A stretch of 57,043 nucleotides of DNA, taken from a virus. Positions 8,301 through 38,790 of this stretch are shown here, piece by piece; the stretch's first letter is position 1, and the number at the start of each line of letters is the position of its first letter. The notes beneath the pieces are model-generated. The model was not told the DNA's origin. It saw nothing but the letters and a program-made list of their open reading frames with translations, and did not search any database. The DNA is taken from the IMG/VR virus record IMGVR_UViG_3300024308_000009, positions 1 through 57,043 of that record; one strand, written 5' to 3'. Position numbers and translations under genes: made by a program.

Positions 8301-11300
8301 AACATAATCACTAGCTGGGCGGATGCCGCTGGAAAAACTCTTGCACTAACCCCAACGTCAGATTTTGGCGGAAGCAAAAGCAGGCTTGTTGAATTTTACA
8401 AGCGATTTGGCTTTGTAGAAAACAAGGGTAAGAACAAGAATTTTGAAGTTAGCGAGTCAATGATCAGGGAGCCAAAAGAAAGCGTTAAATTTAGCAACGA
8501 TTCAATAGTTACCGGCACACCAAAAGGAATGCCAGCAAAGCAAGTTGATGTTATCGCAAAATCATTCATCAAAGAGTACAAAGGAGCCGCTGGCATTAAG
8601 TCTGTGGTGTTCAAAACGCAGAAAGATGCAATGGACTATGCAGGCATTCAAGATGATGAAAGTGTCTTAAGGAACGCCTTCTATAACCCTAGAACGAATG
8701 AAGTTGTTTTGATTGCAGATAATATAAACGGCGCCGCCGATGCTCGCAAAATATTGCGCCATGAAATACTTACTCACCATGGATTAATGCGTGTAGTTGG
8801 TCAAGAGGAATGGCAGAACATTGTTAACCTTGTATCAGCAAGCAGAGAAGCCAAAAGCCTAAAAGATATATGGGCTGACATTGATAGCCGGTATGAAGGC
8901 TTTGATGAAAATACCAAAGCTGAAGAGGTTATCGCGAAAATTTCAGAGATTGAGCCTAGCAAGCTTGGAGAGTGGGGCAATAGAATCATTGCCGCGATAA
9001 CTCGGGCATTAAGAAAGGCTGGCCTTATCGGAGACAAGATCACAGCCACTGAAATTAAGGATATGATCCGCATCATCGGCGAGCGCATTAGGACCGTTAG
9101 CGCTGGCCGGGCAGAAATAAAAAACGACATAAAATTTAGCCAAGGGCAACTTACTGCTAAAGATGGTTTTAGTATTCCTGACGAAACCAGAAAGGATGCA
9201 TTCCTAAGGTCTATACAGGATAAGTACCAGCGCCTTAAGGTCATTCAGAAAGCCGTTAAGGAGCAGGGCGGCATGATTGACGAAAGCAAAGACGTTTACC
9301 TTGCTGAAGAGTTATTCCATGGCAAGGTCGGCGAGGATTTGCGAGTAATGGAGGATCAATATATCAAGCCGCTTGTCGAGTACATGGGCAAGGAAAACGT
9401 TTCACGCGAAGAACTTGATCTGTACTTAATAGCCCGCCACGCGCCAGAGCGAAACGCTCAAATTGCCAAGATTAACCCTGATATTCAGGACGGTGGATCA
9501 GGAATGACTGACGCAGAGGCGGCAAAGGTTATGGATAACTTCACCAGAGAAGGGACTATTGCCAAGATGCAAGCTGCCGCGGCATTTGTTGACGGGATCA
9601 TTAACTCAACAAAACAAAGGCTGATTGATTCAGGCTTAGAGTCGCAAGATGTTGTTGATTCTTGGGATGCAACTTATAAGCATTATGTTCCGCTTAAAGG
9701 CTTTGCTGTAGACGAGTCTGACACTGATGGCAATAGGGTTAAGGCTACTGGCAAAGGCTTCAGCATTCACGGCAATGAAACGATGAGGGCTATGGGCAGA
9801 CGCACAGTATCAGAGTCGCCGCTTGCCTATGTCATTTCTGATGCAACTCAATCTGCTATCCGGGCGCGTAAAAATGAAGTTGCCCAGACAATGCTTAAAC
9901 TCGTTGACGCAAACCCAGATCCTGAGCTTTGGCAAGTATTCAGCAGCGAAAACCCTGACGTTACCCGCAAGATAACTAAGCGCAAGGATCCAGTTACCGG
10001 TAAGACTGTCGAAACAGTTGTTGAAACTGCGATGCCTATGCACGCGATGAAAGACAAATACTTAGGCGCTAAAATTAACGGCGAGCAGTATTACATTAAG
10101 TTGCACGATCCTAGGCTGATGGAGGCAATGGCAAACCTTGGCGTTGAACAGGCAAACATATTAACCAAGACTGTTGGCCGGGTAACTCGAGTTCTGTCGG
10201 CGCTAATCACCAGTTATAACCCTGAATTTGCTTTATCTAACTTTGCTCGCGACGTACAAACAGCAGTTTATAACGTGCTGGCTGAAGCAAAGATAGAAGG
10301 CGGCAAGGCTTTGGGCACTAAAGATCTTGCTAAAAAAATGGTCAAAGACTTGCCAAACTCAATGAAGGCGCTAAAGCGTGGATTTAGGGATAATGACTTT
10401 ACCGGGGAATGGGGTGTATTCCTAAAAGAGTATCTGGATTCTGGCGCTAAGACTGGATGGTTTGTGCAAAAAGATATCGATGATATTAAGAACGATATAA
10501 CCAGATCAATTAGCACCACTGGAGAAGGGGCGGTAAACAAACTTATCCGCAGCAAGGATAAGTTAATCAAGTTTATCGACGACTATAACGATGTAGTTGA
10601 AAACGCTTCACGCCTGTCTGTTTATGTTAATGCCAGACGACAAGGGCTAACTGAAAAGGCCGCGGCATCGCTTGCCAAAAACCTAACAGTAAACTTTAAC
10701 CGTCGCGGAGAAATGACTAACAGCATTAACGCGCTTTACATGTTCTTCAATGCCAGCGTTCAAGGCACTGCAAACATGCTGCGTGCGGTTATGACTCCTG
10801 CTGACAAAACCAAGAAGATTTGGGACCCTGAGTTCTATAACATGACTCAAAAATTAGCGATGGCATTGCCAATAGCTACAATTCTCATGGCGCAGGCAAA
10901 TAGGGAATGGGGCGGCGATGATGACGACGGAAAATCATTCTATGACAAAGTTCCTAACTACGTGAAGGAAACAAACTTTGTATTGATGATCCCAGGTAGT
11001 GAAGGCGACTTCATTAAAATCCCTATGCCTTATGGTTACAACTTCTTTGCGTCGATAGGCCATGCAATTGATCGAGGAATGAATACAGAATCAACAGCAG
11101 TCGAATCTGCCTTTGATGCGGTAGCGGCATTTGCTGGTGCGTTCTCGCCGCTTGGCGCCGTGGGCTCTGAAGAAATGACCTCGCAAGTAGTTAAGACGGC
11201 GGCGCCAGCAATATTAAAGCCGTTTGTCGAAATGGCACTTAACGAGAACTTCACCGGGGCACCAATTTACAAGGAGCAAAACCCGTTCGGTTTAAAAACT

Positions 11301-11873
11301 CCTGATGCCTATAACTCACAAAGAAAAACTTGGGAGTGGGCTAAGGGACTTAGTGAATATTTGAACGATGTAACCGGGGGTAACCAATTCAAATCTGGCG
11401 TCGTAGATATTGCGCCAGAGTCTTGGCAACACCTAATTAAGTTCGCCGGCGGCGGCCTTGGATCGCTGTTTGGCAGGGCGCAGGACTTAGCCGTTAAGAC
11501 TGCTAGGGGTGAAAGCGTTGAATCAAGAGAGATACCATTCTGGCGCAAATACATGGGCTCAATTTCTGAATCAGTCGATATATCTGAAATGTACAAGCGT
11601 TTCGACGAAATAAAGACAGTTGAGAAACAAGCAACCATGTTACCAGGGCAGGAGCGGATCAAGTTCATCGCAGAGAACAGGCCTAAGGTTAAGCTTATAG
11701 CGATGGCAAAAGGCATACAGACCGAGCTTACCAAGCTGAATAAGCAAAAGGCTGCTATCGATGCAAGCAAGCTGAGTGATGAGCAAAAACAATTGAGAAT
11801 TGAAGCAATTGAAAACAGAAAGCGCCTAATGGCTGCTAAGTTTAACAAGGCTTACAATGAATCTGTAAAATGA
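2391..11873 (+). CDS. Giant polyvalent virion protein (DarB-like class) with ART-like, N6-MTase, GNAT-like and HExxH peptidase modules plus a long C-terminal domain
   Basis: Uninterrupted 3,160-aa ORF with RBS AGAGG. The motifs are listed as separate features. All antisense ORFs inside it are low-complexity shadows. Confidence 0.8.
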   Translation: MAGKIFWENQFNQMREGKEPALTIDQEQEREKPQIQLEDVNAPVKQDLSLQAADQGVGVTDVAKAAASGGVGWAESTAEILTEPQFRKTVSTTVPGMILSLSDYVPLIKDKITEARRGGQEALGQAKKSIRESMSEPAKKAIEAELINDNLEFTDDAAKLSTWIMKGTETISRMVPDLVAGGLVGKGLYNAAYETAYKAGIAKGLTEQGAKVSANKIASAAASVPTAFMATTSATGGAGVQAREAIESLPWSDLQKSEIFVNNFKSIDADPANESMSDQQKLSLARTLTAEHASSKIMQDPALLTVNALASFIGDATLGRMIAGKIGGGIVNKAVRGFAAEAPTEAAQSAAEQYAQNLILIDVAGQDVDPMKGVKRAAAEGGLLGGAVGGTVGGTVGAVDKVTGRESQPLEPQLEGPEIIPEEVATIADGDLKPGAAPEPLTVAERRAALNEKLAAQQEQLRRERVLAGTGEVQEALSKGQTAPTPIELIAQAKEQAKVQRDEFAEGRAAPTVAERRANLERRLAQQSAEYAKQQTEAGKGPVQARLSMPTSPTVDELLIKASTETEPSPFELEYRKQAEREYIEKVKDAAIPAGLKGKPNAVKLLNKGYRNAISDFGGLSEQLSKTTYPDPKTDTMAEVIGKMGGIGRATAESEGFDPAMFKGSKTFSANGKMTFDDAAEKLNELGYRNRQGDTLDSNDVVDMLYGEINNTENHYSTHVDPKMLTSDAQIVRTWAKALGGADKLSATIKKSLAGERLGKRQAEVMEDMLDSIAAMRSEGAEQAKQTLDARRSEREAKRIESFNSLMAEATGNKSHIADIDSYNRMLSEKPEYYSEEQVILDELVATAGDIDFNATSEAIDLYESGKTSLPNLLTKLSDIAHKRERTYAEAKPAIQAVSKPTTQSIEGVVTERVAESEGSPAAGRAEVTNIDQRKDGSATTVSDAGLTLLHGSPKSVINIDDVQIVRTGQKQGKKGRLYGGFYATSEEDIEQAKGYAGMSEGTPTIHNVRIKAGTKVLNKIGDITRLSENYINELTSQGYGLVVGKDPRGRTEYVVIDKNAIDSISSMDSVKNKTDLAKQRDRRHAELEVKQAEGLVLETQQKIEQQKATGGRTDILNSNLQRQISGANRIRAKYGLEPIDAKSIKPSESALEPEQMPATKAEPKPEGKAEAQEVTPVEAEPVIVTAEAKPEAIKVEPATKAEPIEFKDKPYSDWESISKKALEGDLPPEAYAEGAEQLLADKERILSEISKAYTKPKLLEKLGPMAAARAKSENKNVAVRYYFEQLISRFNIADSITYGIEKDSYEKAIIKSAKKITPESLAAYKEDLAKRRSEYKAKFEGMVKAVKDPQTLEEFQQFVSLKGEDKLTTEQKVRYEALLTEAGLAKRAEVKMSKAIKKGLWADVEVTEVSPGTHGKTGEPIVNVKLGRLGTDQFKSAAAQARGMGGGYWRGNFYLPDQQSADEFISWIKGEDIDRTEQVTKEEALKQKVKVAKLKSMAEKLEQKANEDLSVTLRENTARQMRMADSSRVKAESDATFAKMLRAIATGIESGDVKYLAEINSKAQLETLDKKMSGLKYNVPQSEVDNLMDRDRDSRLSWKPSVSIEDRVQYAKFPMIDSHYSAVERWASEMDQMSGYKQAAAALRKTIEGIGQRDYAKLDPTKPYFGKLLDFLKEQPNYYNGTEYAAEYSRLTRMGIDTPAALRTALIELHNVKASIDAPTQRSTVETMDRDLKRKMRLNRNAFNDFFPTPKTISSDVVVLADIKEGMKVLEPSAGNGELADAMSVYGAYIDVVEMAGDLRAILEEKGYNIVGNDFTEFKSGPVYDRIVMNPPFSNDQDIDHVYHAYDMLKPGGRLVAIVSSMAGDRSNNKNKAFKEWVSSLDGQEELLPENAFLESLNPTAVRTKTIVIDKPEEVKFSQAKDARQLSKNIKDKFEGLKLSMSEKGDVVTVDNITVPEQRRELGTGSKIMNIITSWADAAGKTLALTPTSDFGGSKSRLVEFYKRFGFVENKGKNKNFEVSESMIREPKESVKFSNDSIVTGTPKGMPAKQVDVIAKSFIKEYKGAAGIKSVVFKTQKDAMDYAGIQDDESVLRNAFYNPRTNEVVLIADNINGAADARKILRHEILTHHGLMRVVGQEEWQNIVNLVSASREAKSLKDIWADIDSRYEGFDENTKAEEVIAKISEIEPSKLGEWGNRIIAAITRALRKAGLIGDKITATEIKDMIRIIGERIRTVSAGRAEIKNDIKFSQGQLTAKDGFSIPDETRKDAFLRSIQDKYQRLKVIQKAVKEQGGMIDESKDVYLAEELFHGKVGEDLRVMEDQYIKPLVEYMGKENVSREELDLYLIARHAPERNAQIAKINPDIQDGGSGMTDAEAAKVMDNFTREGTIAKMQAAAAFVDGIINSTKQRLIDSGLESQDVVDSWDATYKHYVPLKGFAVDESDTDGNRVKATGKGFSIHGNETMRAMGRRTVSESPLAYVISDATQSAIRARKNEVAQTMLKLVDANPDPELWQVFSSENPDVTRKITKRKDPVTGKTVETVVETAMPMHAMKDKYLGAKINGEQYYIKLHDPRLMEAMANLGVEQANILTKTVGRVTRVLSALITSYNPEFALSNFARDVQTAVYNVLAEAKIEGGKALGTKDLAKKMVKDLPNSMKALKRGFRDNDFTGEWGVFLKEYLDSGAKTGWFVQKDIDDIKNDITRSISTTGEGAVNKLIRSKDKLIKFIDDYNDVVENASRLSVYVNARRQGLTEKAAASLAKNLTVNFNRRGEMTNSINALYMFFNASVQGTANMLRAVMTPADKTKKIWDPEFYNMTQKLAMALPIATILMAQANREWGGDDDDGKSFYDKVPNYVKETNFVLMIPGSEGDFIKIPMPYGYNFFASIGHAIDRGMNTESTAVESAFDAVAAFAGAFSPLGAVGSEEMTSQVVKTAAPAILKPFVEMALNENFTGAPIYKEQNPFGLKTPDAYNSQRKTWEWAKGLSEYLNDVTGGNQFKSGVVDIAPESWQHLIKFAGGGLGSLFGRAQDLAVKTARGESVESREIPFWRKYMGSISESVDISEMYKRFDEIKTVEKQATMLPGQERIKFIAENRPKVKLIAMAKGIQTELTKLNKQKAAIDASKLSDEQKQLRIEAIENRKRLMAAKFNKAYNESVK
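5200..5590 (+). other. H-Y-E (PARP-like) ADP-ribosyltransferase-fold domain inside the giant protein
   Basis: LLHGSP (His951 codon at 5241-5243), GRLYGGFYATS 32 aa later, and RTEYVVID (Glu1053 codon at 5547-5549). Spacing and local context resemble HGS / G-x-YFA / NEYIVYD of PARP-type ARTs. Confidence 0.5.
7600..8130 (+). other. SAM-dependent N6-adenine DNA methyltransferase domain (motif I then motif IV) inside the giant protein
   Basis: VLEPSAGNG at 7698-7724 and NPPF at 7881-7892. Confidence 0.75.
8225..8425 (+). other. GNAT-like acetyltransferase module inside the giant protein
   Basis: RRELGTGSKIM (Q/RxxGxG/A-type acetyl-CoA loop) and LVEFYKRFGFV. Confidence 0.45.
8760..8777 (+). other. 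HExxH zinc-metallopeptidase signature (HEILTH) inside the giant protein
   Basis: Codons cat gaa ata ctt act cac, in frame, in the context ARKILRHEILTHHGL. Similar to ArdC/SprT-type peptidase modules of polyvalent proteins. Confidence 0.45.
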
Positions 11874-17035: not shown

Positions 17036-17770
17036 TCAACTCAAGCCCATGGTTAGCCCAAAAATTCTATTTGTTGCTATTTCGAAGTATTTTTCATCAA
17101 GCTCAAAACCTATGAAGTTTCTGCCGGTATTGACGCAAGCAACACCAGTTGTCCCGCTTCCCATTGTAAAATCTAAAACGGTATCACCTTCGTTTGTGTA
17201 TGTTTTTATTAGGTATTCCATTAGGGCTACTGGTTTTTGTGTTGGGTGGTAATTAGCTTTTCTTTTATCACTTTTAAATTGTTGAATGCTTCTAGGGTAC
17301 CGCTCGCAGCTATCGTATGATGGCAATGAAATGTCTTTGCCGTAGCACTCTGATGAGACAACTTTTTTCTTTGCTATTTTCCTTTTGTGTCCAGTTGTTT
17401 TTTGTGGGTTGTAAGTTGGAAGAGATTTATAAAATACCAAAATGCTTTCATGGCTTCGTAAAGGCATAAGTTTGGCGTTAAAAAATCCGGTACCTGCAGG
17501 CTTGTCATAAACCCAGTCATATCTAAACATTTCCAGATTGCTGCAAACTAGAATGCTTGTAAATGGCTGACTCGCTGTTAACACAATAGCGCCATTTGGT
17601 TTAATAATCCTCTTTAACTGCTCCCACATCGGCTCGAGTGGAATTATTGAGTCCCACTTGCAAGCGGTAGTACCGTAAGGTGGGTCTGTTAATATTAAAT
17701 CAACGCTACCGCTTGGTATCGCCTTCATTAGCTCCAAGCAATCCCCTTGAGTTAAATTTATATCTAACAT
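17036..17770 (-). CDS. DNA methyltransferase (N6A/N4C, beta class)
   Basis: DPPY at 17675-17686 near the N-terminus. FTMGSGTTGVAC (motif I) near the C-terminus. Confidence 0.85.
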   Translation of the reverse strand: MLDINLTQGDCLELMKAIPSGSVDLILTDPPYGTTACKWDSIIPLEPMWEQLKRIIKPNGAIVLTASQPFTSILVCSNLEMFRYDWVYDKPAGTGFFNAKLMPLRSHESILVFYKSLPTYNPQKTTGHKRKIAKKKVVSSECYGKDISLPSYDSCERYPRSIQQFKSDKRKANYHPTQKPVALMEYLIKTYTNEGDTVLDFTMGSGTTGVACVNTGRNFIGFELDEKYFEIATNRIFGLTMGLS

Positions 17771-18729: not shown

Positions 18730-19272
18730 CTACAAATAACCATATAGTTCTTTTTTAGTGATATACGTTGTTATCCTGGCTGCAATTTTAAATGGGTTAA
18801 AAATCAGGATAAATTGAGGCTTATTATTCGTTGTTCCTGGTTGCCCATTTTCATCTAAAAAATGGATTCTCCCAGTCGTGTACTCACGATGCCGCTTATC
18901 TTCCTCTGGCATTTCGTCGGCAATAATACAGCGAATTTCACTGACTGTTTTATAGGCCTCTGCAAACCAACCAACGCTAGTGTCATTGTTAAGCAGCATA
19001 ACAACGCCCAGTCCTCCTATCTGCGCCCGCTTAGCCTGTTTAACCCATGGCATTGGATTGGAATAAGGGCAGTTTAGCCACACATACTCAAGTCGATTAG
19101 ACTGCAGCGCAGGGTGTTGGGACCAGTTAAATGACAAGCTGTCATCTTCTTCTGTGAAATGCAGTGCGCAAAGTGCATTTTGATGCGAACATGCCATATC
19201 AGCGATGAAATGAAATTCAGCATTTAACGTATTAAATACCTCCGGCGGCGTGCGCCATAAATCATTAGACAT
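18730..19272 (-). CDS. Phage Dam-family N6-adenine DNA methyltransferase with NCPY catalytic variant
   Basis: WRTPPEVF N-terminus, FIADMAC, and VWLNCPYSNPMPWV (NCPY at 19063-19074). Confidence 0.7.
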   Translation of the reverse strand: MSNDLWRTPPEVFNTLNAEFHFIADMACSHQNALCALHFTEEDDSLSFNWSQHPALQSNRLEYVWLNCPYSNPMPWVKQAKRAQIGGLGVVMLLNNDTSVGWFAEAYKTVSEIRCIIADEMPEEDKRHREYTTGRIHFLDENGQPGTTNNKPQFILIFNPFKIAARITTYITKKELYGYL

Positions 19273-32122: not shown

Positions 32123-32362
32123 ATGACCGGAATAGTTGAGCTATTAACCTGCGTTGGTAATGAAAACATCGAGTTTCAAAAGCTAAATAGTTGCATTACC
32201 AGCGTTAAAGAAAAGAAGAGAGACAAATGCACTGAACTGTCATTTCTTACCCAGGCCATAACGCCTACCGACATTGTGATGGGAACTGCAAAAGTCGGGC
32301 TAGTTATATGGGTAGATCAGTCTGTAATCGAAAAAGCATACGAAGAGGCATCTAAAAAATGA
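32123..32362 (+). CDS. Hypothetical protein
   Basis: 79-aa ORF. Confidence 0.45.
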   Translation: MTGIVELLTCVGNENIEFQKLNSCITSVKEKKRDKCTELSFLTQAITPTDIVMGTAKVGLVIWVDQSVIEKAYEEASKK

Positions 32363-32901
32363 AACCACTTATTGAGCTACAAACAAGAATTTACAATCAG
32401 AACAAGGAGGCCGGCTGGCATGACAAGCCTCGCTCCTTCAATACCTTTGTTTGCCTATTTCACTCTGAGCTATCAGAAGGCATGGAAGGGGTTAGAAAGG
32501 ACCAGTTAGACAATCACCTTCCGGCATACCCGATGATTGCAGTTGAGTTGGCAGACTTTGTTATTCGCATACTGGATTGGTTTGGACTTCAGCAAGACGA
32601 ATCTATCTGCGCTGAACTGCGAGAAATAACAAAAGTTTCCTGGCGTAAAAACTGGGATGAAATGGACTGGCTAGCCGAGATCCACGGAGACGTATCGGCG
32701 GCAAAGTATTTTTACGATGTAAGCGGTGAATACGAGATGCCAGTAAACCATCTAAGCAAGGCAATATCAGAAGCCTTTGCCATGGCAAATTTCTATGGAT
32801 GGGACCTAATGCAAATCATCGAGGAAAAGCTCGAGTACAACAAACACCGCGCAGATCACAAGCGCGAGAACAGAAGCAAGCCAGATGGCAAGAAGTTTTA
32901 G
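32359..32901 (+). CDS. MazG-like all-alpha NTP pyrophosphohydrolase
   Basis: NKEAGWHD...FHSELSEGMEGVRK...AVELADFVIRILD. The EExxE-type acidic helices are typical of phage MazG. Confidence 0.55.
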   Translation: MKPLIELQTRIYNQNKEAGWHDKPRSFNTFVCLFHSELSEGMEGVRKDQLDNHLPAYPMIAVELADFVIRILDWFGLQQDESICAELREITKVSWRKNWDEMDWLAEIHGDVSAAKYFYDVSGEYEMPVNHLSKAISEAFAMANFYGWDLMQIIEEKLEYNKHRADHKRENRSKPDGKKF

Positions 32902-32909
32902 GAGGATTC

Positions 32910-33305
32910 ATGAAAGCCAGAAATCAAAGCTCATCGCCAGTAAGCAGCACTATGATGTGCTGCCCGGTAAGCGGACCGGTTAAAATGCTTGAGTATGATA
33001 GATCTAGGGTTATCGCTCCAAATAACTCTATTTTTAAGCATGGTGCGAAAGGTGAGTTTGAGGCACTCGTTAATGAAATTGGTGGCATGGAGTACGGGCA
33101 GAAAAAAACAGTATCTATGGAATATCTATCATCGTTTGCATCGAGTTATTTTCATAAAGGTAAATGGCATAACCCTGCAGATATATTGCTGAGCAATATT
33201 ATGGGATCTTCATTTGAATACGTTTATGATGTTAATAGCATGCATGCTGAGGTTACATTTATCAGGCTGGCAAACGGGAAAAATAAAGTTGTAAAAGTGG
33301 TTTAG
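32910..33305 (+). CDS. Hypothetical protein
   Basis: Start at MKARNQ after RBS AGGAGGA. 131 aa. Confidence 0.55.
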   Translation: MKARNQSSSPVSSTMMCCPVSGPVKMLEYDRSRVIAPNNSIFKHGAKGEFEALVNEIGGMEYGQKKTVSMEYLSSFASSYFHKGKWHNPADILLSNIMGSSFEYVYDVNSMHAEVTFIRLANGKNKVVKVV

Positions 33306-33317
33306 ATAGACTATATT
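33289..33317 (+). promoter_or_regulatory. Sigma70-like promoter candidate upstream of the structured repeat region and tRNAs
   Basis: TTGTAA (33289-94), 17-nt spacer, TATATT (33312-17). Confidence 0.4.
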
Positions 33318-33412
33318 TAACCCGCTTCAAAACGCTCCAAAGAAACAAATCAGGTGCAATTCCTCCACAGCTTTGCATACCAAGTGACCGCAGCCGCGGT
33401 GATTGCATTGGC

Positions 33413-33490
33413 AAGGTGACTCTAAATTCATGGGCTAGCTATAAATTGTCCAGCATACCTGTTTGTATTAGAAGGTATATGAGTCATCTT
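33413..33490 (+). ncRNA. Structured unit A (short, 78 nt)
   Basis: P1 aaggtgactc (33413-22) pairs with gagtcatctt (33481-90), 10 bp with one G-T. Inner hairpin atacc...ggtat. Confidence 0.4.
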
Positions 33491-33621
33491 GACCAATGTG
33501 ATTAACAAAACAAGACTGCAAAATGAGTGATGGCGACACTCATAAATAAAACGTAACGGTGTTACTTGCCACCAGCGAAATCACATTAACAAGTGACCGC
33601 ACATGCGGTGATTATATTGGC

Positions 33622-33747
33622 AAGATGATTGAGATTTGTGTGTAACTGAGTATTTGCTGTTAATCAGAGATGCGGCAAGTATTGAAACCATTAGCATGGC
33701 GCATCTTGATCAAATGCGTATCGCTCTTAAATGTTACCAGTCATCTT
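33622..33747 (+). ncRNA. Structured unit B (126 nt)
   Basis: P1 33622-31/33738-47. P1b gtaac/gttac. P2 33651-57/33675-81. P3 ccat-tagc-atgg (33688-99). Confidence 0.45.
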
Positions 33748-33884
33748 GACCAATGTGATTAATGGGTTGTGAGTACATGGCCGGAAATCACATTCGCCTA
33801 AATCCAGTACACGGTTATCAACAAGAGTTACACGCCACTCTGGGCGCCGCGGGGCGAATAAATCGCGGCGCAAACTTATTCGCA

Positions 33885-34008
33885 TGGTGATTGAAATTTG
33901 GTTGCAACTGAATTACTACTCGACAGCATAGACGGGGTAGTAATTGAAACCCTCCGCAGGGGGCATCTTGATCAAATGGCTATCGCTCGGGAATGTTGCC
34001 AATCACCA
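33885..34008 (+). ncRNA. Structured unit C (124 nt)
   Basis: P1 tggtgattg/caatcacca (33885-93/34000-08). P1b gcaac/gttgc. P2 33914-21/33935-42. P3 ccct-ccgc-aggg (33950-61). Confidence 0.45.
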
Positions 34009-34023
34009 GCCGAATAAGTTTAA

Positions 34024-34100
34024 GGCCCATTAGCTCAGTTGGTTAGAGCAAACGACTCATAATCGTTAGGTCATCGGTTCAAGTCCGATATGGGCCACCA
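34024..34100 (+). tRNA. tRNA with CAU anticodon, most likely tRNA-Ile2 (lysidine-dependent, reads AUA); elongator tRNA-Met is the alternative
   Basis: Hand-folded cloverleaf: GGCCCAT/ATGGGCC acceptor, GCTC/GAGC D stem, AACGA-CTCATAA-TCGTT, ATCGG-TTCAAGT-CCGAT, encoded CCA. Close to E. coli ileX as I recall it (C4-G69, C5-G68). Confidence 0.9.
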
Positions 34101-34104
34101 TTTA

Positions 34105-34181
34105 GCGCCTATAGCTCAGTAGGATAGAGCATCCACCTTCTAAGCGGATGGTCGCAGGTTCGAGCCCTGCTAGGCGCACCA
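34105..34181 (+). tRNA. tRNA-Arg (UCU, reads AGA)
   Basis: GCGCCTA/TAGGCGC acceptor, anticodon loop CTTCTAA, GCAGG-TTCGAGC-CCTGC, encoded CCA. One A-C mismatch in the anticodon stem. Resembles argU. Confidence 0.9.
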
Positions 34182-34210
34182 ATTCAACAAAGCAACAGTA
34201 AGGGAAAGCA

Positions 34211-34417
34211 ATGAGAATTTCGCAACAAGCAAGCAGAGCAGTTTTAGCAGCATGTGTCGCAGCAATGGCCGCTGGCGGTCGAGTATCATATGACATTCAG
34301 GGTCAGGCCCGCTTTGTTCTGGCTGATCGCTCAACCACTCGCAAGTGCAAAGGTGCTAACGCTGTAAAGGGTAAGCGTCATGCTTCGCTAAAAGCCCGCG
34401 CCAACAAGCGCAAATAG
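34211..34417 (+). CDS. Hypothetical basic protein
   Basis: 68-aa ORF with RBS AAGGGA and a Lys/Arg-rich C-terminus. Confidence 0.4.
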   Translation: MRISQQASRAVLAACVAAMAAGGRVSYDIQGQARFVLADRSTTRKCKGANAVKGKRHASLKARANKRK

Positions 34418-34649: not shown

Positions 34650-34675
34650 AAAGCCCTCGCCTGAGGGCTTTTTGC
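34650..34675 (+). terminator. Rho-independent terminator
   Basis: aagccctc-gcct-gagggctt followed by tttg. Confidence 0.7.
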
Positions 34676-34763
34676 TATTCAGCCATACCTTATTAATCCC
34701 CTACAAACTAGATACAAAACAATCCTTTCTATATACTGATCACACTGATATACAGAGGTGATC

Positions 34764-35570
34764 ATGACAGATAAAAAATCCCCAAAATCAACCAATAAAT
34801 CGACCATAGATTGGGAGGTGATTTGCGAGGAATATCTAGCCCTCAAAGAGTCAAAGAAAGACTTAACAATCAAAGGCTTTTGCGCAATGAGAGAGGACCT
34901 TGCGTATAACACTGCAAGGGTGAAAATGCCTAAGCTATTGCCCGTGATCATCGAGAGATCACGCGAAGATCAAAGAAGGATCATGCCAGACGGCACCAAG
35001 GCGCGAAGAAACAATAATCGAAGTCACAAAGAGTATTTGCCGCGAGAAACTGACGAAACAACAGGGCACGGCATCTACAGCAAATACTTTGACCCTGATT
35101 TATTAGACGTGGCCGCTCAAGGAACATTGCACGATGACTTAACACTGTATCGGGCAAAGGCATTGCAGGCACTGAACTACATAACGGGCCTGCACGATAA
35201 GATGCAAGAAGCCATGGAAAACGGTGATTTAGAAACAGCCGGGCAATTAGAAGAGCGAGTTAAAACCAGTGACAAGGCTTTATCGTGGTGTTTGGCCCGC
35301 ATTGAATCGATTGCTATGACGATAAAACGCATAGAGCTTACATCGGTATTGATAGTTAAAGAGCGCGCAAACATCGTTAAGACCAAGGCGCAGATTAAAG
35401 CTGTCGTGGCACAAACTAAAAAATTCAGCGCCGAAGGCACGTTGGCCAGGGCTAGAGTTAACGACTTAGGCAAGACTGGCGGCGCGGGAACTGCCGCAGA
35501 TATCATTAAGGAAATTCAAACCATGCGGGATAAACTCCCGTCGTTCGTAAAACACAGACAAGAGGATTGA
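34764..35570 (+). CDS. Terminase small subunit candidate
   Basis: ATG after AGAGGTG. N-terminal HTH-like IDWEVICEEYLALKESKKDLTIKGFCAMREDLAYNTARVKM plus a C-terminal coiled coil. First gene of the packaging operon. Confidence 0.4.
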   Translation: MTDKKSPKSTNKSTIDWEVICEEYLALKESKKDLTIKGFCAMREDLAYNTARVKMPKLLPVIIERSREDQRRIMPDGTKARRNNNRSHKEYLPRETDETTGHGIYSKYFDPDLLDVAAQGTLHDDLTLYRAKALQALNYITGLHDKMQEAMENGDLETAGQLEERVKTSDKALSWCLARIESIAMTIKRIELTSVLIVKERANIVKTKAQIKAVVAQTKKFSAEGTLARARVNDLGKTGGAGTAADIIKEIQTMRDKLPSFVKHRQED

Positions 35571-36104: not shown

Positions 36105-36722
36105 GTGAGTAGTGTTATGGATAAGAAATTATTTATACAAAACACAGGTGTTGAGATTAAAAAGATAACAAACATTGAAGATCTTATTTTAATGGTTGGT
36201 GTTATAGAAAGGATAAAAAAAGGATTTCTATGCTACAGGACAGCGCATGAAGATTGCGACGAAGTACGCGGCAAAGCATGCGATGAAATATGCGAAGAAC
36301 CTTTGATAATCCAAGATTGCTCTTTAGTCGAAATACCTTTGATCGAATGCATCAATGCTCAAGATCATTCTTCAGAAGATAGCCAAACAGAGTATGTTGC
36401 AGAAAAAATAGTTGTTAAAAAGGTTAGCTTAAAGTCTTTTGTTAGAAAAATGAAATCTAGAAAGAGCAGGGCATTTATCAAAAGTGATAAGTGGAAAATA
36501 ATTAGAAGCATAACAATCGGAATATACGGAAGCTCTTGCATGTGTTGTGGAAAGTCTTTCGAAGATAAGCTTATGAATGTTGACCACATAAAGCCAAGAT
36601 CTAAATACCCGCGCTTAATGGATGATTTTTATAACCTCCAAGTGCTTTGCGTTTTCTGCAACTTCAAAAAAGGCATTAAAGAAACAGATTACCGACCATT
36701 GTCTGTAATTGGAATTAACTGA
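36105..36722 (+). CDS. HNH endonuclease (terminase-associated position)
   Basis: CMCCGKSFEDKLMNVDHIKPRSKYPRLMDDFYNLQVLCVFCNFKKG. Very AT-rich. The start may be the ATG at 36117. Confidence 0.8.
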   Translation: MSSVMDKKLFIQNTGVEIKKITNIEDLILMVGVIERIKKGFLCYRTAHEDCDEVRGKACDEICEEPLIIQDCSLVEIPLIECINAQDHSSEDSQTEYVAEKIVVKKVSLKSFVRKMKSRKSRAFIKSDKWKIIRSITIGIYGSSCMCCGKSFEDKLMNVDHIKPRSKYPRLMDDFYNLQVLCVFCNFKKGIKETDYRPLSVIGIN

Positions 36723-37077: not shown

Positions 37078-38790
37078 ATGCCGCTTGATTATCTGGATGA
37101 TGAACAAATACTTGCTATGAGCGCCGATGAGCAAGCCGATTACATCAAGCGGGCATTATCAGATCAGTGGTGGCGGCTAAATAACCTTTACTGGATCACC
37201 GACAAGAACGGCCAGCGCGTTAAGTTCAGGCTTAACGCCGCCCAAAGACTGCTGTTTGAGAATATGTGGTTCTTCAACATTATCCTAAAGGCCCGTCAGC
37301 TTGGCTTTAGTACTGTCGTTCAAATCTTCATTCTCGATTCAGCGCTTTTCAATGAAAACTTAAACTGCGGTATCGTGGCGCAGGACCTTCCGAAAGCGCG
37401 GGAGATCTTCCGTACAAAGATTATGTACCCCTATGATAACCTGCCTAATTGGGTGATTGAGGCAGTACCAACAGTGATGAAGAACACCACAGAGATCTTA
37501 TTCTGCAATGGTTCGAAGATCACTGTTTCAACTGGCTTCCGCTCTGGCACAGTCAACATTCTCCACGTTTCAGAGTTCGCCAAGATATGCGCGACTCGCA
37601 AGGATAAGGCCCAAGAGGTGATCGACGGTACGCTAAACGCTGTTCACCCAGGTAACATTGCATTCATCGAGTCAACTGCAGAGGGCGCCGCTGGCCATTA
37701 TTATGATATGTGCCTCGAGGCCCAGGAACTGCAAAGCGCCGGGCTACCTCTCACCGAGATTGATTTTAAGTTCTTCTTCTTCCCATGGTGGGATGAGCCA
37801 AGTTATGTGATGGCAGTGCCAGAAGGCGGGCTAAAGCTAAACCCTACACAGGATAAATACTTCAAGAGCCTTGAGATCTACTTGGGCAAGGCCATACCCG
37901 AAGAGAGAAAAGCCTGGTACGTCGCTAAAGAGCGCCAGCAAAAAGGGCAAATGAAACAGGAATTCCCCAGCACTCCAGAAGAAGCTTTCCTTACTTCAGG
38001 CCGAAAGGTTTTCGATAACGACGATTTGAACGCGGCTAAAGGCAAGGTGATAGCCCCGATCCTCATCTACGACATAAACACTAAGACGGGCATTCGGAAG
38101 GTGGCTAATCGCAGTGTCGACACTTCACTGCTTCAGCGCACGTACACAGAAAAGACGAGCAAGGCTGTTATGAATTACTTGCTTGTGTGGGAAATGCCTG
38201 AGCCAGATCTAGAGTATGTGATCGGTGGTGACGTATCGGAAGGGCTCGAGAAGGGGGACAGGTCGTCACTTGATATCCTCGAGAAGCATACCGGCAGGCA
38301 GGTTGCCCACTGGTATGGCAAGGTTAGCCCGAGTGAGTTTGGCGAGCTAATCGCTTATCTTGGTCGCTGGTATAACATGGCATTCGTCGGCGTAGAGCGA
38401 AACAACCACGGCCATGCAACACTGGCAAAGCTAAGGGAGATTTACCCGCTTGGGTTAATCTACCGTGAAGAGTATATGGATAGGGAGATCGCCGACGACG
38501 AAACGCAGCGCATTGGCTGGCATACTAGCGCAGTGAGCAAGGAGATATTGATCAGTGACATGGATGATTCGTTTAAGGCCAACAAATCAGGTATTCGATG
38601 GACTGGCACACTGAACGAGTTTTATACTTTCGTGAGGGATGAGCGCGGAAGGCCTAACGCTATGAACGGCGCATTTGACGATCAGGTAATGAGTTACATG
38701 ATTGCCCAAGTAATGAGAGCCAAAGCGCCTGCTAAACAAAAACCTGTTAAAATCGAAAACAATTCTACTAAACATTGGATGGCAACTTAA
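37078..38790 (+). CDS. terL: Terminase large subunit
   Basis: 570 aa. Walker-A-like ILKARQLGFSTV, ILHVSEFA, IESTAEG. Lies immediately upstream of the portal. Confidence 0.8.
   Translation: MPLDYLDDEQILAMSADEQADYIKRALSDQWWRLNNLYWITDKNGQRVKFRLNAAQRLLFENMWFFNIILKARQLGFSTVVQIFILDSALFNENLNCGIVAQDLPKAREIFRTKIMYPYDNLPNWVIEAVPTVMKNTTEILFCNGSKITVSTGFRSGTVNILHVSEFAKICATRKDKAQEVIDGTLNAVHPGNIAFIESTAEGAAGHYYDMCLEAQELQSAGLPLTEIDFKFFFFPWWDEPSYVMAVPEGGLKLNPTQDKYFKSLEIYLGKAIPEERKAWYVAKERQQKGQMKQEFPSTPEEAFLTSGRKVFDNDDLNAAKGKVIAPILIYDINTKTGIRKVANRSVDTSLLQRTYTEKTSKAVMNYLLVWEMPEPDLEYVIGGDVSEGLEKGDRSSLDILEKHTGRQVAHWYGKVSPSEFGELIAYLGRWYNMAFVGVERNNHGHATLAKLREIYPLGLIYREEYMDREIADDETQRIGWHTSAVSKEILISDMDDSFKANKSGIRWTGTLNEFYTFVRDERGRPNAMNGAFDDQVMSYMIAQVMRAKAPAKQKPVKIENNSTKHWMAT

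What the first reader, a model, noticed from the sequence alone, without database searches (positions are those of the whole stretch)
33380..34010. Three tandem structured RNA-like units with compensatory base changes, co-oriented with and 15 nt upstream of the tRNA pair
About 715 bp lie between the stop at 33305 and tRNA-Ile2 at 34024. The region has no ORF of 60 aa or more, and no short ORF is conserved between the repeats. Three units are each closed by a long-range helix P1. Unit A is aaggtgactc 33413-22 / gagtcatctt 33481-90. Unit B is aagatgattg 33622-31 / cagtcatctt 33738-47. Unit C is tggtgattg 33885-93 / caatcacca 34000-08. Units B (126 nt) and C (124 nt) align end to end and share three further helices. 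P1b is gtaac 33642-46 / gttac 33733-37 in B, and gcaac 33904-08 / gttgc 33995-99 in C. P2 is tatttgc 33651-57 / gcaagta 33675-81 in B, and tactactc 33914-21 / gggtagta 33935-42 in C. P3 is ccat-tagc-atgg 33688-99 in B, and ccct-ccgc-aggg 33950-61 in C. Where the copies differ inside helices, the changes are compensatory. In P1: A-T to G-C, T-A to C-G, and G-C to C-G. In P1b: T-A to C-G. In P2: T-A to A-T and G-C to C-G. In P3: A-T to C-G. The joining segments are invariant: ATTGAAAC, GCATCTTGATCAAATG, TATCGCTC, AATGTT. Every non-Watson-Crick pair is G-T on the + strand, which would be C-A on the - strand. That points to a + sense RNA, the same sense as the tRNAs. A TTGTAA-17-TATATT promoter-like site lies at 33289-33317. 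Units A and B are each preceded by a conserved leader hairpin: accgc-NNNN-gcggt at 33387-33400 and 33596-33609, with different loops. Precedents for stable RNAs of unknown role next to phage tRNA genes include T4 species 1/2 RNAs and the large GOLLD and ROOL RNAs. P1 c4 RNA is a further, RNase P-processed phage precedent. I do not recognise this fold as any of them.
Basis: seen in the sequence. Interest (0 to 1): 0.8.

Follow-up and report, generated by a model that had tools for sequence, protein, structure and literature searches.

The report
New structured RNAs before phage tRNAs
A Shewanella-type phage carries, just upstream of its two tRNA genes, a row of stem-closed structured RNA modules, two of them copies of a previously undescribed ~125-nt four-helix RNA. 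Related phages keep the same closing stems but swap the RNA inside them like cassettes.

Summary
Units B (33615-33750) and C (33877-34012) align without gaps at 72% identity. Over 30 base pairs in P1, P1b, P2 and P3, 97.8% of cells pair. Nine pairs changed on both sides. No shuffle reaches these values, and slid controls give 0-1. P2 is 11 bp with five compensatory pairs. A fifth hairpin, P4, presents the invariant palindromic loop CUUGAUCAA. All wobbles are G.U on the + strand. B and C share an open frame, but its substitutions are not those of a coding sequence. Rfam 15 matches only the two tRNAs.

The closing stems are 20-23 bp long. C's stem ends 2 nt before the tRNA. Unit A shares B's stem, leader hairpin and tail, but not its core.

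In relatives, probably Shewanella phages, the same "frames" enclose at least eight other cargos. These sit in promoter-to-terminator "RNA islands", usually with tRNAs. One cargo swap is clean.

Best reading: these are modular stable ncRNAs, co-transcribed with tRNAs and released by processing. Their function is unknown. Expression is inferred, not shown. The B/C core was found in only four copies.

The parts
33289..33317 (+). Promoter-like site TTGTAA-17-TATATT. It is weak, and read-through from the upstream + strand operon is equally possible.
   Evidence: 9 of 12 matches. The number of such sites in the region is not above shuffles.
33353..33378 (+). Conserved upstream segment GTGCAATTCCTCCACAGCTTTGCATA (inverted repeat GTGCAA..TTGCAT), shared with relative L140.
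   Evidence: L140 3461-3552 matches window 33337-33419 at 72%; sequences read.
33387..33400 (+). Leader hairpin of unit A (ACCGC-AGCC-GCGGT).
   Evidence: The stem is kept in 8 units with loops AGCC, ACAT, ACAC or CGTAA.
33401..33503 (+). Unit A. A 22-bp closing helix (33401-22/33481-503, bulged A33492) encloses a 58-nt cargo with two hairpins. The cargo is unrelated to B/C.
   Evidence: model R1 matches only through the stem, 18 bits.
33493..33505 (+). Tail of unit A, CCAATGTGATTAA. It can pair with the 5' frame or with the anti-tail.
33579..33587 (+). Anti-tail of unit A, AATCACATT.
   Evidence: (repeat D6).
33596..33609 (+). Leader hairpin of unit B (ACCGC-ACAT-GCGGT).
33609..33761 (+). Unit B. 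A 23-bp closing helix (33609-31/33738-61, bulged A33749) encloses the B/C-type core. Core helices: P1b 33642-46/33733-37; P2 33649-59/33673-83; P3 33688-91/33696-99; P4 33700-04/33714-18 with loop CTTGATCAA at 33705-13.
   Evidence: The unit is 98% identical to L025 8928-9103 and 97% to L152 3655-3844.
33750..33762 (+). Tail of unit B, CCAATGTGATTAA.
   Evidence: Invariant in 9 units.
33786..33794 (+). Anti-tail of unit B, AATCACATT. It is a nearly isoenergetic alternative partner for the tail.
   Evidence: -67.6 versus -67.0 kcal/mol.
33844..33871 (+). G+C-rich hairpin GCGCCGCG-N12-CGCGGCGC, abutting unit C. Its loop GCGAATAAAT can pair with the 5' arm of C's stem.
33872..34021 (+). Unit C. 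The closing helix is 33872-93/34000-21 (22 positions, 2 mismatches). Core helices: P1b 33904-08/33995-99; P2 33911-21/33935-45; P3 33950-53/33958-61; P4 33962-66/33976-80 with loop 33967-75. The unit ends 2 nt before the tRNA.
   Evidence: (I1). The same C-type frame occurs with other cargos in Shewanella phage ZP9 and in L179.
34024..34100 (+). tRNA with anticodon CAT (Met by ARAGORN; Ile2 is possible).
   Evidence: 74.7 bits.
34105..34181 (+). tRNA-Arg (TCT).
   Evidence: 67.1 bits.
34650..34671 (+). First good terminator-like hairpin downstream of the array.
   Evidence: The homologous terminator follows the tRNA directly in L140.

Best explanation
The 33380-34023 region is the 5' part of a phage tRNA transcription unit. 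It encodes a row of independently folding noncoding RNA modules, read from the + strand.

Each module is a cargo RNA closed by a 20-23-bp helix formed from its own flanks. Units B and C are two diverged copies of one new RNA. It is about 125 nt long and forms a junction of P1b, P2, P3 and P4. Its joining strands are invariant, and its P4 loop is the invariant self-complementary sequence CUUGAUCAA. Unit A is a different cargo in the same frame as B.

Proposed mechanism:
- The array is co-transcribed with the tRNAs.
- RNase P cutting at tRNA position +1 makes the 3' end of unit C, 2 nt after its stem.
- The long stems either serve as RNase III-type processing stalks, as around rRNAs, or simply protect both ends.
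- The cargos then accumulate as stable RNAs that act in trans.
- For B/C the most likely action is binding a protein or another copy of itself through the invariant single strands and the palindromic loop. This would serve phage takeover or counter-defence in the tRNA sphere.

What is shown: the fold, its conservation, its strand, the modular frames and the cassette swaps. What is inferred: transcription, processing, stability and the trans function.
For: Fold. Over 30 pairs, 97.8% of cells pair and 9 pairs changed on both sides. Shuffles reach this 0/500 times and slid controls give 0-1. RNAalifold independently recovers P1, P1b and P2, and adds P4 with one more compensatory pair. The whole region folds with z = -5.5.

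Strand. B has 4 G.U pairs in the core helices and 3 more in the outer stem, with no A.C. Energies are better on the + strand. The array is co-oriented with the tRNAs and with upstream genes.

Not coding. Differences by codon position are 9/14/11. Five codon changes are synonymous and 18 are not.

Transcription-unit context. In L025, L151, L152, L153 and L155 a strong promoter sits just upstream. It is TTGACA-16-TATACT and scores 11 of 12 in L025; in L155 the first hexamer reads TTGACG. In L025, L151, L153 and L155 tRNAs follow and then a terminator.

Geometry. C's stem ends 2 nt before the tRNA. The C-type frame of cultured Shewanella phage ZP9 ends the same 2 nt (AA) before its tRNA-Gly.

Autonomy of modules. 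B occurs at 97-98% identity in otherwise unrelated contexts, including one without tRNAs. L025 and L155 differ only by the cargo between the stem arms.

Not essential DNA. Relative L139 lacks both the units and the tRNAs.

Precedent. ROOL and GOLLD lie near phage tRNA islands and self-assemble through kissing loops (PMC12286853). An int-alpA sRNA lies in the same island in L152 and ZP9.
Against: - There are no expression data of any kind. The window's own promoter-like site is weak.
- The covariation for the B/C core rests on one real comparison, B-type versus C. Only four copies exist, and three of them are nearly identical.
- Pattern scans of IMG/VR, JGI metagenomes and GTDB genomes found no further cores.
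- RNase III cleavage is a guess from helix length alone.
- A helix 2 nt from the acceptor stem might hinder RNase P rather than help it.
- No binding partner or antisense target was found. Complementarity to the phage genome is at chance level.
- The 100% conserved tail and the cassette swaps would also fit a DNA-level recombination role.
Confidence: 0.5

Rival explanations
1. The array is a cis-acting leader or conformational switch. It acts only on its own transcript. The tail of each unit pairs either with the 5' frame or with the downstream anti-tail. This choice would gate processing (RNase P, E or III) or transcription of the downstream tRNAs and genes.
For: For unit B the two pairings are nearly isoenergetic, -67.6 versus -67.0 kcal/mol. 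Both are kept in 9 units, at 100% and 96% of cells paired. The tail is invariant, as expected under a double constraint. C's 5' arm also has an alternative partner in the loop of the preceding hairpin. The leader hairpin followed by GAUUAUAUU scores as terminator-like. The stem lies 2 nt from the tRNA in both the window and ZP9.
Against: Units occur without any tRNA downstream, in L152, L142 and L179. No convincing terminator or ribosome-binding site is controlled by the alternative pairing. A switch does not explain why the cargos are elaborate, why they differ, and why the B/C joining strands are invariant. No double-sided covariation supports either alternative helix, because the tail never varies.
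Confidence: 0.2
2. The units are DNA-level modules. The conserved inverted-repeat frames would be recombination handles or ends of a small non-autonomous mobile element (MITE- or attC-like). These handles would shuffle cassettes between phages. On this view the RNA folds are by-products or relics, some of them decayed tRNA genes.
For: Frames are 97-100% identical between phages whose flanks are unrelated. L025 and L155 show a clean cargo replacement. In L142 an ORF is inserted between the leader hairpin and the stem, with ATTATAT on both sides. In L154, cargo E has recombined with tRNA-Ser at GGTATTGC. Cargo E resembles tRNA-Ser. Homing-endonuclease-like genes lie next to some islands.
Against: Internal helices of B/C covary strongly. 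A recombination site or transposon end does not need that. All stem mismatches are G.U on one strand, and one-sided changes in the frames are always wobble-compatible. No target-site duplication, transposase or integron integrase was found. The R'/R'' core consensus is not met (read). The frames occur only inside the island in this genome. The islands are bounded by a promoter and a terminator.
Confidence: 0.15
3. B and C encode a small protein of 37-39 aa. The frames are 33636-33749 and 33898-34017, with TTG starts, and GGTGAT lies 7 nt upstream in C.
For: The frame is open in the same register in both copies, and 19 of 37 residues are identical.
Against: There is no third-position bias (9/14/11). 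Five codon changes are synonymous and 18 are not. The conserved stretches are invariant at all three codon positions. Variable stretches change in a base-pair-preserving way rather than a codon-preserving way. The start is TTG directly after an in-frame TGA. No gene is called over the unit in homologous contigs. The other cargos share no frame.
Confidence: 0.03
4. The repeats are a DNA site for packaging (cos or pac), replication or repressor binding, lying upstream of the terminase genes.
For: The region lies about 0.7 kb upstream of TerS, HNH and TerL. It contains inverted repeats and the palindrome TTGATCAA with a GATC. The phage encodes a Dam methylase.
Against: Relative L139 has the same terminase module but no units. 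In other phages the units sit after the lysis genes, far from any terminase. Complementarity is conserved rather than sequence. The repeat arms are 50-130 bp apart, which does not suit dimeric binding proteins.
Confidence: 0.02

Closest known systems
ROOL and GOLLD RNAs (large ornate RNAs of phages and prophages)
   Same: Structured noncoding RNAs of unknown function, encoded by phages and prophages, often next to tRNA islands. Their conserved loops mediate RNA-RNA contacts (kissing loops) (PMC12286853).
   Different: ROOL and GOLLD are 500-800+ nt single RNAs, whereas each core here is about 125 nt. Neither Rfam model matches, even at E<10. Self-association of B/C through UUGAUCAA is only an idea. 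The frame-plus-cargo modularity has no counterpart in them.
T4 species 1 and species 2 stable RNAs (rnaC, rnaD) in the T4 tRNA cluster (from my own knowledge; not tested here)
   Same: Stable RNAs of about 120-140 nt and unknown function, encoded among phage tRNA genes, co-transcribed with them and released by tRNA-type processing.
   Different: No sequence or structure comparison was possible with the tools. They come from a different phage type. They are not tandem paralogues and are not known to sit in exchangeable stems.
RtT RNA from the repeats of the E. coli tyrT operon (family RF00391, from my knowledge)
   Same: Tandem repeated units inside a tRNA operon that are released as small RNAs during processing.
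   Different: The RtT repeats lie downstream of the tRNA. There is no Rfam match here. The fold is different.
RNase III processing stalks around 16S/23S rRNA and in T7/lambda transcripts (established knowledge)
   Same: Sequences flanking a functional RNA pair over about two helical turns and enclose it. tRNAs lie in the same transcript.
   Different: Cleavage here is not shown. The stems have a single bulged A and conserved sequence. The enclosed RNAs are small and varied.
Y RNAs / bacterial YrlA
   Same: A conserved bulged stem formed by the 5' and 3' ends carries a variable module that is sometimes tRNA-like. Some cargos here look tRNA-derived.
   Different: The YrlA model hits only the genuine tRNAs, at 21 bits. 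No TROVE/Rsr hit was found among the 20 window ORFs scanned against Pfam. The bulge is on the opposite strand.
Riboswitch aptamers, for example tandem glycine aptamers
   Same: A P1-closed multi-helix junction with covarying stems and invariant joining strands, in tandem copies. The 3' strand of the closing stem has an alternative partner.
   Different: There is no regulated terminator or ribosome-binding site. The closing stem is conserved in sequence while the interior is exchangeable, the reverse of an aptamer family. No Rfam riboswitch matches.
Integron attC sites / MITEs
   Same: Imperfect inverted repeats with an extrahelical base flank a variable centre of about 50-130 nt. The elements behave as swappable cassettes.
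   Different: There is no integrase or transposase and no cassette ORFs. The RYYYAAC/GTTRRRY cores are absent, as are target duplications. The internal helices covary and the wobbles are strand-specific.

Membership tests
Any Rfam 15 family (including GOLLD, ROOL, C4, RtT, YrlA, ribozymes, riboswitches) | Covariance-model score at or above the family's gathering threshold. | tested here: not met
   Only the two tRNAs pass. At E<10 over 33200-34250, nothing lies on the units except a 13-bit chance hit (sR18).
tRNA / tRNA-like | Cloverleaf with D and T loop signatures (RF00005 or ARAGORN). | tested here: not met
   There is no hit on A, B or C. Some other cargos (E in L151) only resemble tRNA-Ser fragments.
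Structured ncRNA (generic criterion) | Helices maintained by compensatory substitutions beyond controls. | tested here: met
   9 of 30 pairs changed on both sides, 97.8% of cells paired, 0/500 shuffles, slid controls 0-1. Caveat: effectively two independent sequences.
Structured ncRNA (generic criterion) | Transcribed from the proposed strand as a discrete RNA. | not testable with these tools
   Only indirect support exists: promoter/terminator layout in relatives, G.U asymmetry.
Protein-coding small ORF | Substitutions biased to synonymous or third positions. | tested here: not met
   9/14/11 differences by codon position; 5 synonymous versus 18 nonsynonymous codon changes.
Riboswitch | A conserved aptamer coupled to an expression platform (terminator or RBS sequestration) for a downstream gene. 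| tested here: not met
   No terminator or RBS is linked to the alternative pairing. tRNAs or nothing lie downstream. The interior is exchangeable under a conserved stem.
RNase III processing stalk | About 20 bp or more of double helix formed by the flanks of the released RNA. | tested here: met
   22 bp (A), 23 bp (B), and 20 pairs over 22 positions (C).
RNase III processing stalk | Staggered cleavage in the stem, dependent on rnc. | not testable with these tools
   Needs end mapping in wild-type and rnc hosts.
MITE / transposon ends | Terminal inverted repeats with target-site duplication, multiple dispersed copies and a cognate transposase. | tested here: not met
   Frames occur only in the island. 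No duplication was seen at unit borders. Mismatches are all wobble-type on one strand. One 7-bp repeat flanks an ORF insertion in L142, which is inconclusive.
Integron attC | R''/R' core sites RYYYAAC...GTTRRRY, cassette ORFs, IntI. | tested here: not met
   Read. The cores do not fit at the outer ends, there are no cassette ORFs, and no integrase was seen among the annotated ORFs.
CRISPR mini-array / RNA anti-CRISPR (solitary repeat) | Direct repeats of 28-37 nt with spacers, or a near-identical copy of a host repeat. | tested here: inconclusive
   There is no CRISPR-like periodicity. Resemblance of the leader hairpin or ATTGAAAC to known repeats is from memory only.
Lambda-type nut site / rrn boxA antitermination | boxA (CGCTCTTA / GCTCTTTA) followed by a boxB hairpin, conserved. 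| tested here: not met
   B has CGCTCTTA at 33722-29 but C has CGCTCGGG. The hairpin precedes rather than follows it. Terminators end the islands.
Y RNA / YrlA | Rsr/Ro (TROVE) partner and a match to the YrlA model. | tested here: not met
   the YrlA hit lies on the tRNAs only. No TROVE hit among the 20 window ORFs scanned against Pfam. A host Rsr could not be examined.

The most novel reading that the evidence does not exclude
Shewanella phages may possess an "RNA cassette" system. Two standard closing frames would serve as common processing and stabilising scaffolds. The B-type frame has a leader hairpin, then GGTGATTAYATTGG-CAAGATGA ... TCATCTTG-A-CCAATGTGATTAA, then an anti-tail. The C-type frame is ...TTCGCATGGTGATTG ... 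AATCACCA.CCGAA... and abuts a tRNA.

Unrelated structured RNAs would be exchanged into these frames by recombination and expressed from tRNA operons. At least nine cargo types were seen, including tRNA-derived ones.

Within this system the B/C RNA would be a new four-helix RNA class. Its invariant palindromic loop (CUUGAUCAA) would make it dimerise, B with C in cis or copy with copy in trans. That would make it a small counterpart of the self-assembling ROOL and GOLLD RNAs of tRNA islands, possibly acting against tRNA-directed host defences.
Probability: 0.25. Interest if true: 0.8.

Novelty: new variant of a known kind. Interest (0 to 1): 0.62.

Why it matters
Phage tRNA islands are known to harbour enigmatic structured RNAs such as ROOL, GOLLD and the T4 stable RNAs. 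None has an established function.

This locus adds a small, tractable example. Its secondary structure is already well supported. It has an obvious testable feature, the invariant self-complementary loop. It also has an unusual genetic architecture: identical closing stems that carry interchangeable cargos in different phages.

A C-type frame sits in a cultured phage-host pair, Shewanella phage ZP9 on S. xiamenensis. Processing, stability and function can therefore be tested directly.

If the frames prove to be a general scaffold for expressing RNAs from tRNA operons, that would be a new principle of phage genome modularity at the RNA level. It would also be a potentially useful expression scaffold.

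Tried and rejected
Searches for more B/C cores, all negative:
- The exact 16-mer, two flanking patterns and the 5' motif in IMG/VR found only L025.
- The GTDB genome scan gave chance hits only.
- The JGI metagenome scan gave only chance or protein-repeat hits.
- blastn against INPHARED phages, PLSDB plasmids and E. coli genomes found nothing for the units.
- Model R1 found no further core in the 19 loci searched with it.

More distant TerS relatives (L143-L147) have no units.

Ideas rejected:
- Coding.
- An antisense target in the phage genome: complementary 9- to 11-mers are at chance level.
- nut/boxA: not conserved in C.
- A sigma-54 promoter in TTGGCAAGATGATTGA: it lacks the GC at -12 and is absent in C.
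- CRP-like half-sites AATGTGAT/ATCACATT: the spacing of 22-105 nt is wrong.
- attC and MITE: see the membership test.
- A pseudoknot between the P2 loop and GCATCT: present in B only.
- Rsr/Y RNA: no TROVE hit among the window ORFs scanned against Pfam.
- Hammerhead-like CUGA...GAAA: the core positions do not fit, and Rfam is negative.
- The resemblance to mir-31 is a chance match to the stem.
Full report
CONTEXT

The window is a 57-kb phage genome with 44% G+C and a lambdoid-style mosaic layout. Its features include:
- O/P-like replication genes, NinG and methylases on the - strand.
- An Erf-type recombination operon on the + strand, running up to 33305.
- TerS (34758-35570), HNH (36105-36722), TerL (37078-38790) and a P22-type portal.

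TerL is 64% identical to that of marine Vibrio phages. Relatives found later point to Shewanella as the host genus. One homologue of the Rz protein of L025 is annotated as Shewanella sp.. Part of a related island matches cultured Shewanella phages ZP9, 1/4 and 1/40.

The finding lies in the 718-nt noncoding gap 33306-34023. Directly downstream are tRNA(CAT) at 34024-34100 and tRNA-Arg(TCT) at 34105-34181.

THE OBSERVATION

B and C form a 129-nt direct repeat at 72% identity without gaps. On the alignment of window B, window C and the two B-type copies from other phages, the four proposed helices contain 30 pairs. Of these cells, 97.8% form standard pairs, and nine pairs changed on both sides. 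No shuffle out of 500 reaches these values. Sliding the 3' partners by 1-3 columns drops pairing to 24-54% and compensatory pairs to 0-1.

It is 11 bp, with five double changes, one single change and no disruption.

The single B-type substitution inside a helix is informative. In L025 and L152, P3 carries an A.G where B has A-U and C has C-G. This is the intermediate between the two paired states.

RNAalifold recovers P1, P1b and P2 on its own. It also proposes a further hairpin, P4 (33700-04/33714-18 in B). P4 has one more compensatory pair (C-G to G-C) and one G.G mismatch in C. Its 9-nt loop is the invariant CUUGAUCAA, which contains the 8-nt palindrome UUGAUCAA.

STRAND

B has four G.U pairs in its core helices and three in its outer stem. 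C has one. There is no A.C. The + strand folds better than the - strand (-38.2 versus -30.6 kcal/mol for B, -51.1 versus -49.4 for C). The whole 33318-34023 stretch folds at -223 kcal/mol with z = -5.5.

The closing helices are much longer than stated:
- A: 22 bp.
- B: 23 bp with one bulged A.
- C: 22 positions with two mismatches (33872-93/34000-21).

C therefore ends 2 nt before the tRNA, not 15 nt.

It is not coding. Differences fall 9/14/11 on codon positions 1/2/3. Five changed codons are synonymous and 18 are not. The conserved blocks are invariant at all three positions.

The promoter-like site is real but unremarkable.

Unit A shares with B the leader hairpin, the closing stem and the 24-nt tail. 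Its interior is unrelated.

KNOWN FAMILIES

Rfam 15 gives only the two tRNAs at gathering thresholds. Nothing meaningful appears on the units even at E<10.

HOMOLOGUES AND THE WIDER PATTERN

The B/C core is rare. Pattern scans of IMG/VR, JGI metagenomes and GTDB genomes found a single further copy, L025. A synteny walk through Rz homologues of L025 gave one more, L152. Both are 97-98% identical to window unit B over 176-190 nt, while their flanks are unrelated to the window.

What is widespread in this phage group is the frame. The B-type frame has these parts:
- A leader hairpin (ACCGC-N4/5-GCGGT).
- A 5' arm, GTGATTAYATTGG-CAAGATGA.
- A 3' arm, TCATCTTG-A-CCAATGTGATTAA. The tail is invariant in nine units.
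- A downstream anti-tail, AATCACATT.

This frame encloses different interiors in window A, window B, L140 (a 59.6-kb relative of the window phage, found in three samples), L151, L153, L155, L142 and L157.

L025 and L155 are 94-96% identical on both sides. They differ only by the cargo between the stem arms, 108 nt versus 47 nt. This is a clean cassette replacement.

Unit C uses a second frame, ...TTCGCATGGTGATTG / CAATCACCAGCCGAA.... That frame recurs in two places:
- With a 49-nt unrelated cargo directly upstream of tRNA-Gly in cultured Shewanella phage ZP9. There too the stem ends 2 nt (AA) before the tRNA.
- With another cargo in L179.

The outer part of this stem covaries: AAACTTA/TAAGTTT, AAATATTA/TAATATTT and GGCATA/TGTGCC.

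Across the nine B-type frames the outer stem is paired in 100% of cells. Three positions vary on one side only, always in a wobble-compatible way on the + strand. The tail can alternatively pair with the anti-tail, at 96% of cells. For unit B the two conformations differ by only 0.6 kcal/mol.

TRANSCRIPTION CONTEXT

In L025, L151, L152, L153 and L155 the modules follow a strong sigma-70-type promoter placed right after the Rz/Rz1 lysis genes. It reads TTGACA-16-TATACT and scores 11 of 12 in L025; in L155 the first hexamer reads TTGACG. In L025, L151, L153 and L155 tRNAs (Gly/Ser/Arg, Met/Ser/Arg, or Gly alone) come next, and then a terminator.

L152 has B without tRNAs, but with an int-alpA sRNA (47.9 bits) and an HNH gene. 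ZP9 likewise has int-alpA, a further conserved noncoding module and tRNA-Gly after its lysis genes.

These loci are therefore RNA islands, self-contained units that express noncoding RNAs and tRNAs. A close relative of the window phage, L139, has the same terminase module but neither units nor tRNAs. The array is thus accessory. It cannot be cos, pac or an origin.

MECHANISM: SHOWN AND INFERRED

Shown:
- A conserved four- to five-helix fold for B/C.
- Its strand.
- Its non-coding nature.
- Long closing stems.
- Conserved frames with interchangeable cargos.
- Fixed 2-nt spacing of the C-type stem to a tRNA.

Inferred from established tRNA biology: the array is co-transcribed with the tRNAs, and RNase P cleavage at +1 creates the 3' end of the last module.

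Inferred from helix length, by analogy with rRNA processing stalks and T7/lambda RNase III sites: the stems are processing and/or protective elements, so the cargos accumulate as discrete RNAs.

Speculative: B/C acts in trans through its invariant single strands, and its palindromic loop mediates B-C or intermolecular pairing. The only basis is analogy with the kissing-loop assemblies of ROOL and GOLLD, which also sit near phage tRNA islands (PMC12286853). A link to tRNA-directed defence, for which phage tRNAs themselves are a proposed counter-measure (PMC10264068), is a lead only.

RIVALS

A purely cis-acting switch is supported by the isoenergetic alternatives. It is weakened by units that have no tRNA downstream, and by the elaborate, diverse cargos.

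A DNA-level cassette or mobile-element role is supported by the swaps, the ORF insertion in L142 and the recombination of cargo E with tRNA-Ser in L154. It does not explain the internal covariation or the strand-specific wobbles. It may well coexist with an RNA function, with the frames serving as the homology at which cassettes recombine.

Small-protein and packaging/replication-site readings are effectively excluded.

LIMITS

There are no expression data. The core covariation rests on essentially one paralogue comparison.

VERDICT

This is a real and well-supported new structured RNA, set in an unusual modular arrangement. It belongs to the known kind "structured RNAs of phage tRNA islands" but to none of its described families. 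Its function is unknown.

Noticed in passing
L153 3575-3680 and L151 about 3845-3950: A tRNA-like element of about 106 nt that ARAGORN misses. The Rfam tRNA model gives 32 bits for the L153 copy. It has a type-II-like D arm (ACCGAGTCAGGTTTAAGGT), a T arm ACAGG-TTCGAAT-CCTGT and an acceptor stem GCTAGTA/TACTAGC in L153. The L151 copy is 84% identical, and its acceptor stem differs on both sides (GCAGCG/CGCTGC). It may be a tRNA with an insertion, or a pseudo-tRNA.
   Followed up: partly
L152 3969-4038; Shewanella phage ZP9 (L158 868-937): An int-alpA RNA (RF02996, 47.9 bits, above its threshold) lies in the same RNA island as the B-type unit. ZP9's depositors annotate the same sRNA after its lysis genes.
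   Followed up: partly
L154 1340-1500 compared with L151 3676-4343: The 5' half of cargo E is fused to tRNA-Ser at the shared octamer GGTATTGC, deleting about 700 nt. Cargo E itself resembles parts of tRNA-Ser: an anticodon-arm-like hairpin with a GCUAA loop, the D-arm-like GGTATTGC, and the T-arm-like GGTTTAAGTCC. Some cargos therefore appear to be tRNA-derived.
   Followed up: partly
L142 (- strand) 1205-865: A small A+T-rich ORF of about 85 aa is inserted between the leader hairpin and the stem of a unit, with ATTATAT on both sides of the insert. The displaced leader matches the 5' part of the L157-type unit.
   Followed up: no
L151 3977-4046, L153 3885-3935, L142 (- strand) about 700-655, ZP9 (L158 1501-1557), phage 1/4 (L159 1501-1556): Another conserved noncoding module, ...GCAAGCAAAGTCAACGCTGTGAAGTGTGGATGATGCAAAT.... 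It recurs upstream of tRNA-Gly or pseudo-tRNA genes in uncultured and cultured Shewanella phages. No Rfam family matches it.
   Followed up: partly
L025 8835-8925, L152 3560-3650, L155 3560-3650: "Module X": a noncoding stretch of about 90 nt between the strong promoter and the unit. It is closed by an 11-bp helix (ATTGTGTTGTG.../...CACAACACAAT). It may be another stem-closed RNA module.
   Followed up: no
window 33353-33378; L140 3478-3503: A conserved segment upstream of the first unit in both relatives. It has the inverted repeat GTGCAA-N13-TTGCA(T/C) and a DnaA-box-like T(A/C)(A/C)TCCACA. It could be an operator or part of a promoter.
   Followed up: no
window 33722-33729: Unit B carries an exact lambda-type boxA, CGCTCTTA, in its single-stranded 3' joining region. 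Unit C has CGCTCGGG at the same place, so an antitermination role was not pursued.
   Followed up: yes
window 18730-19272 (- strand) and 17036-17770 (- strand): The phage encodes a Dam-family N6-adenine methylase (PF05869) and a second DNA methyltransferase. The invariant B/C loop contains GATC.
   Followed up: no
window 2391-11873 (+ strand): A single 3160-aa ORF. It is very large for a 57-kb phage and was not analysed.
   Followed up: no
window 32359-32901 and 32799-33305 (+ strand): The pyrophosphatase-like ORF and the following 168-aa ORF (no family hits) overlap by about 100 nt in different frames. The second gene's true start is probably further downstream.
   Followed up: no
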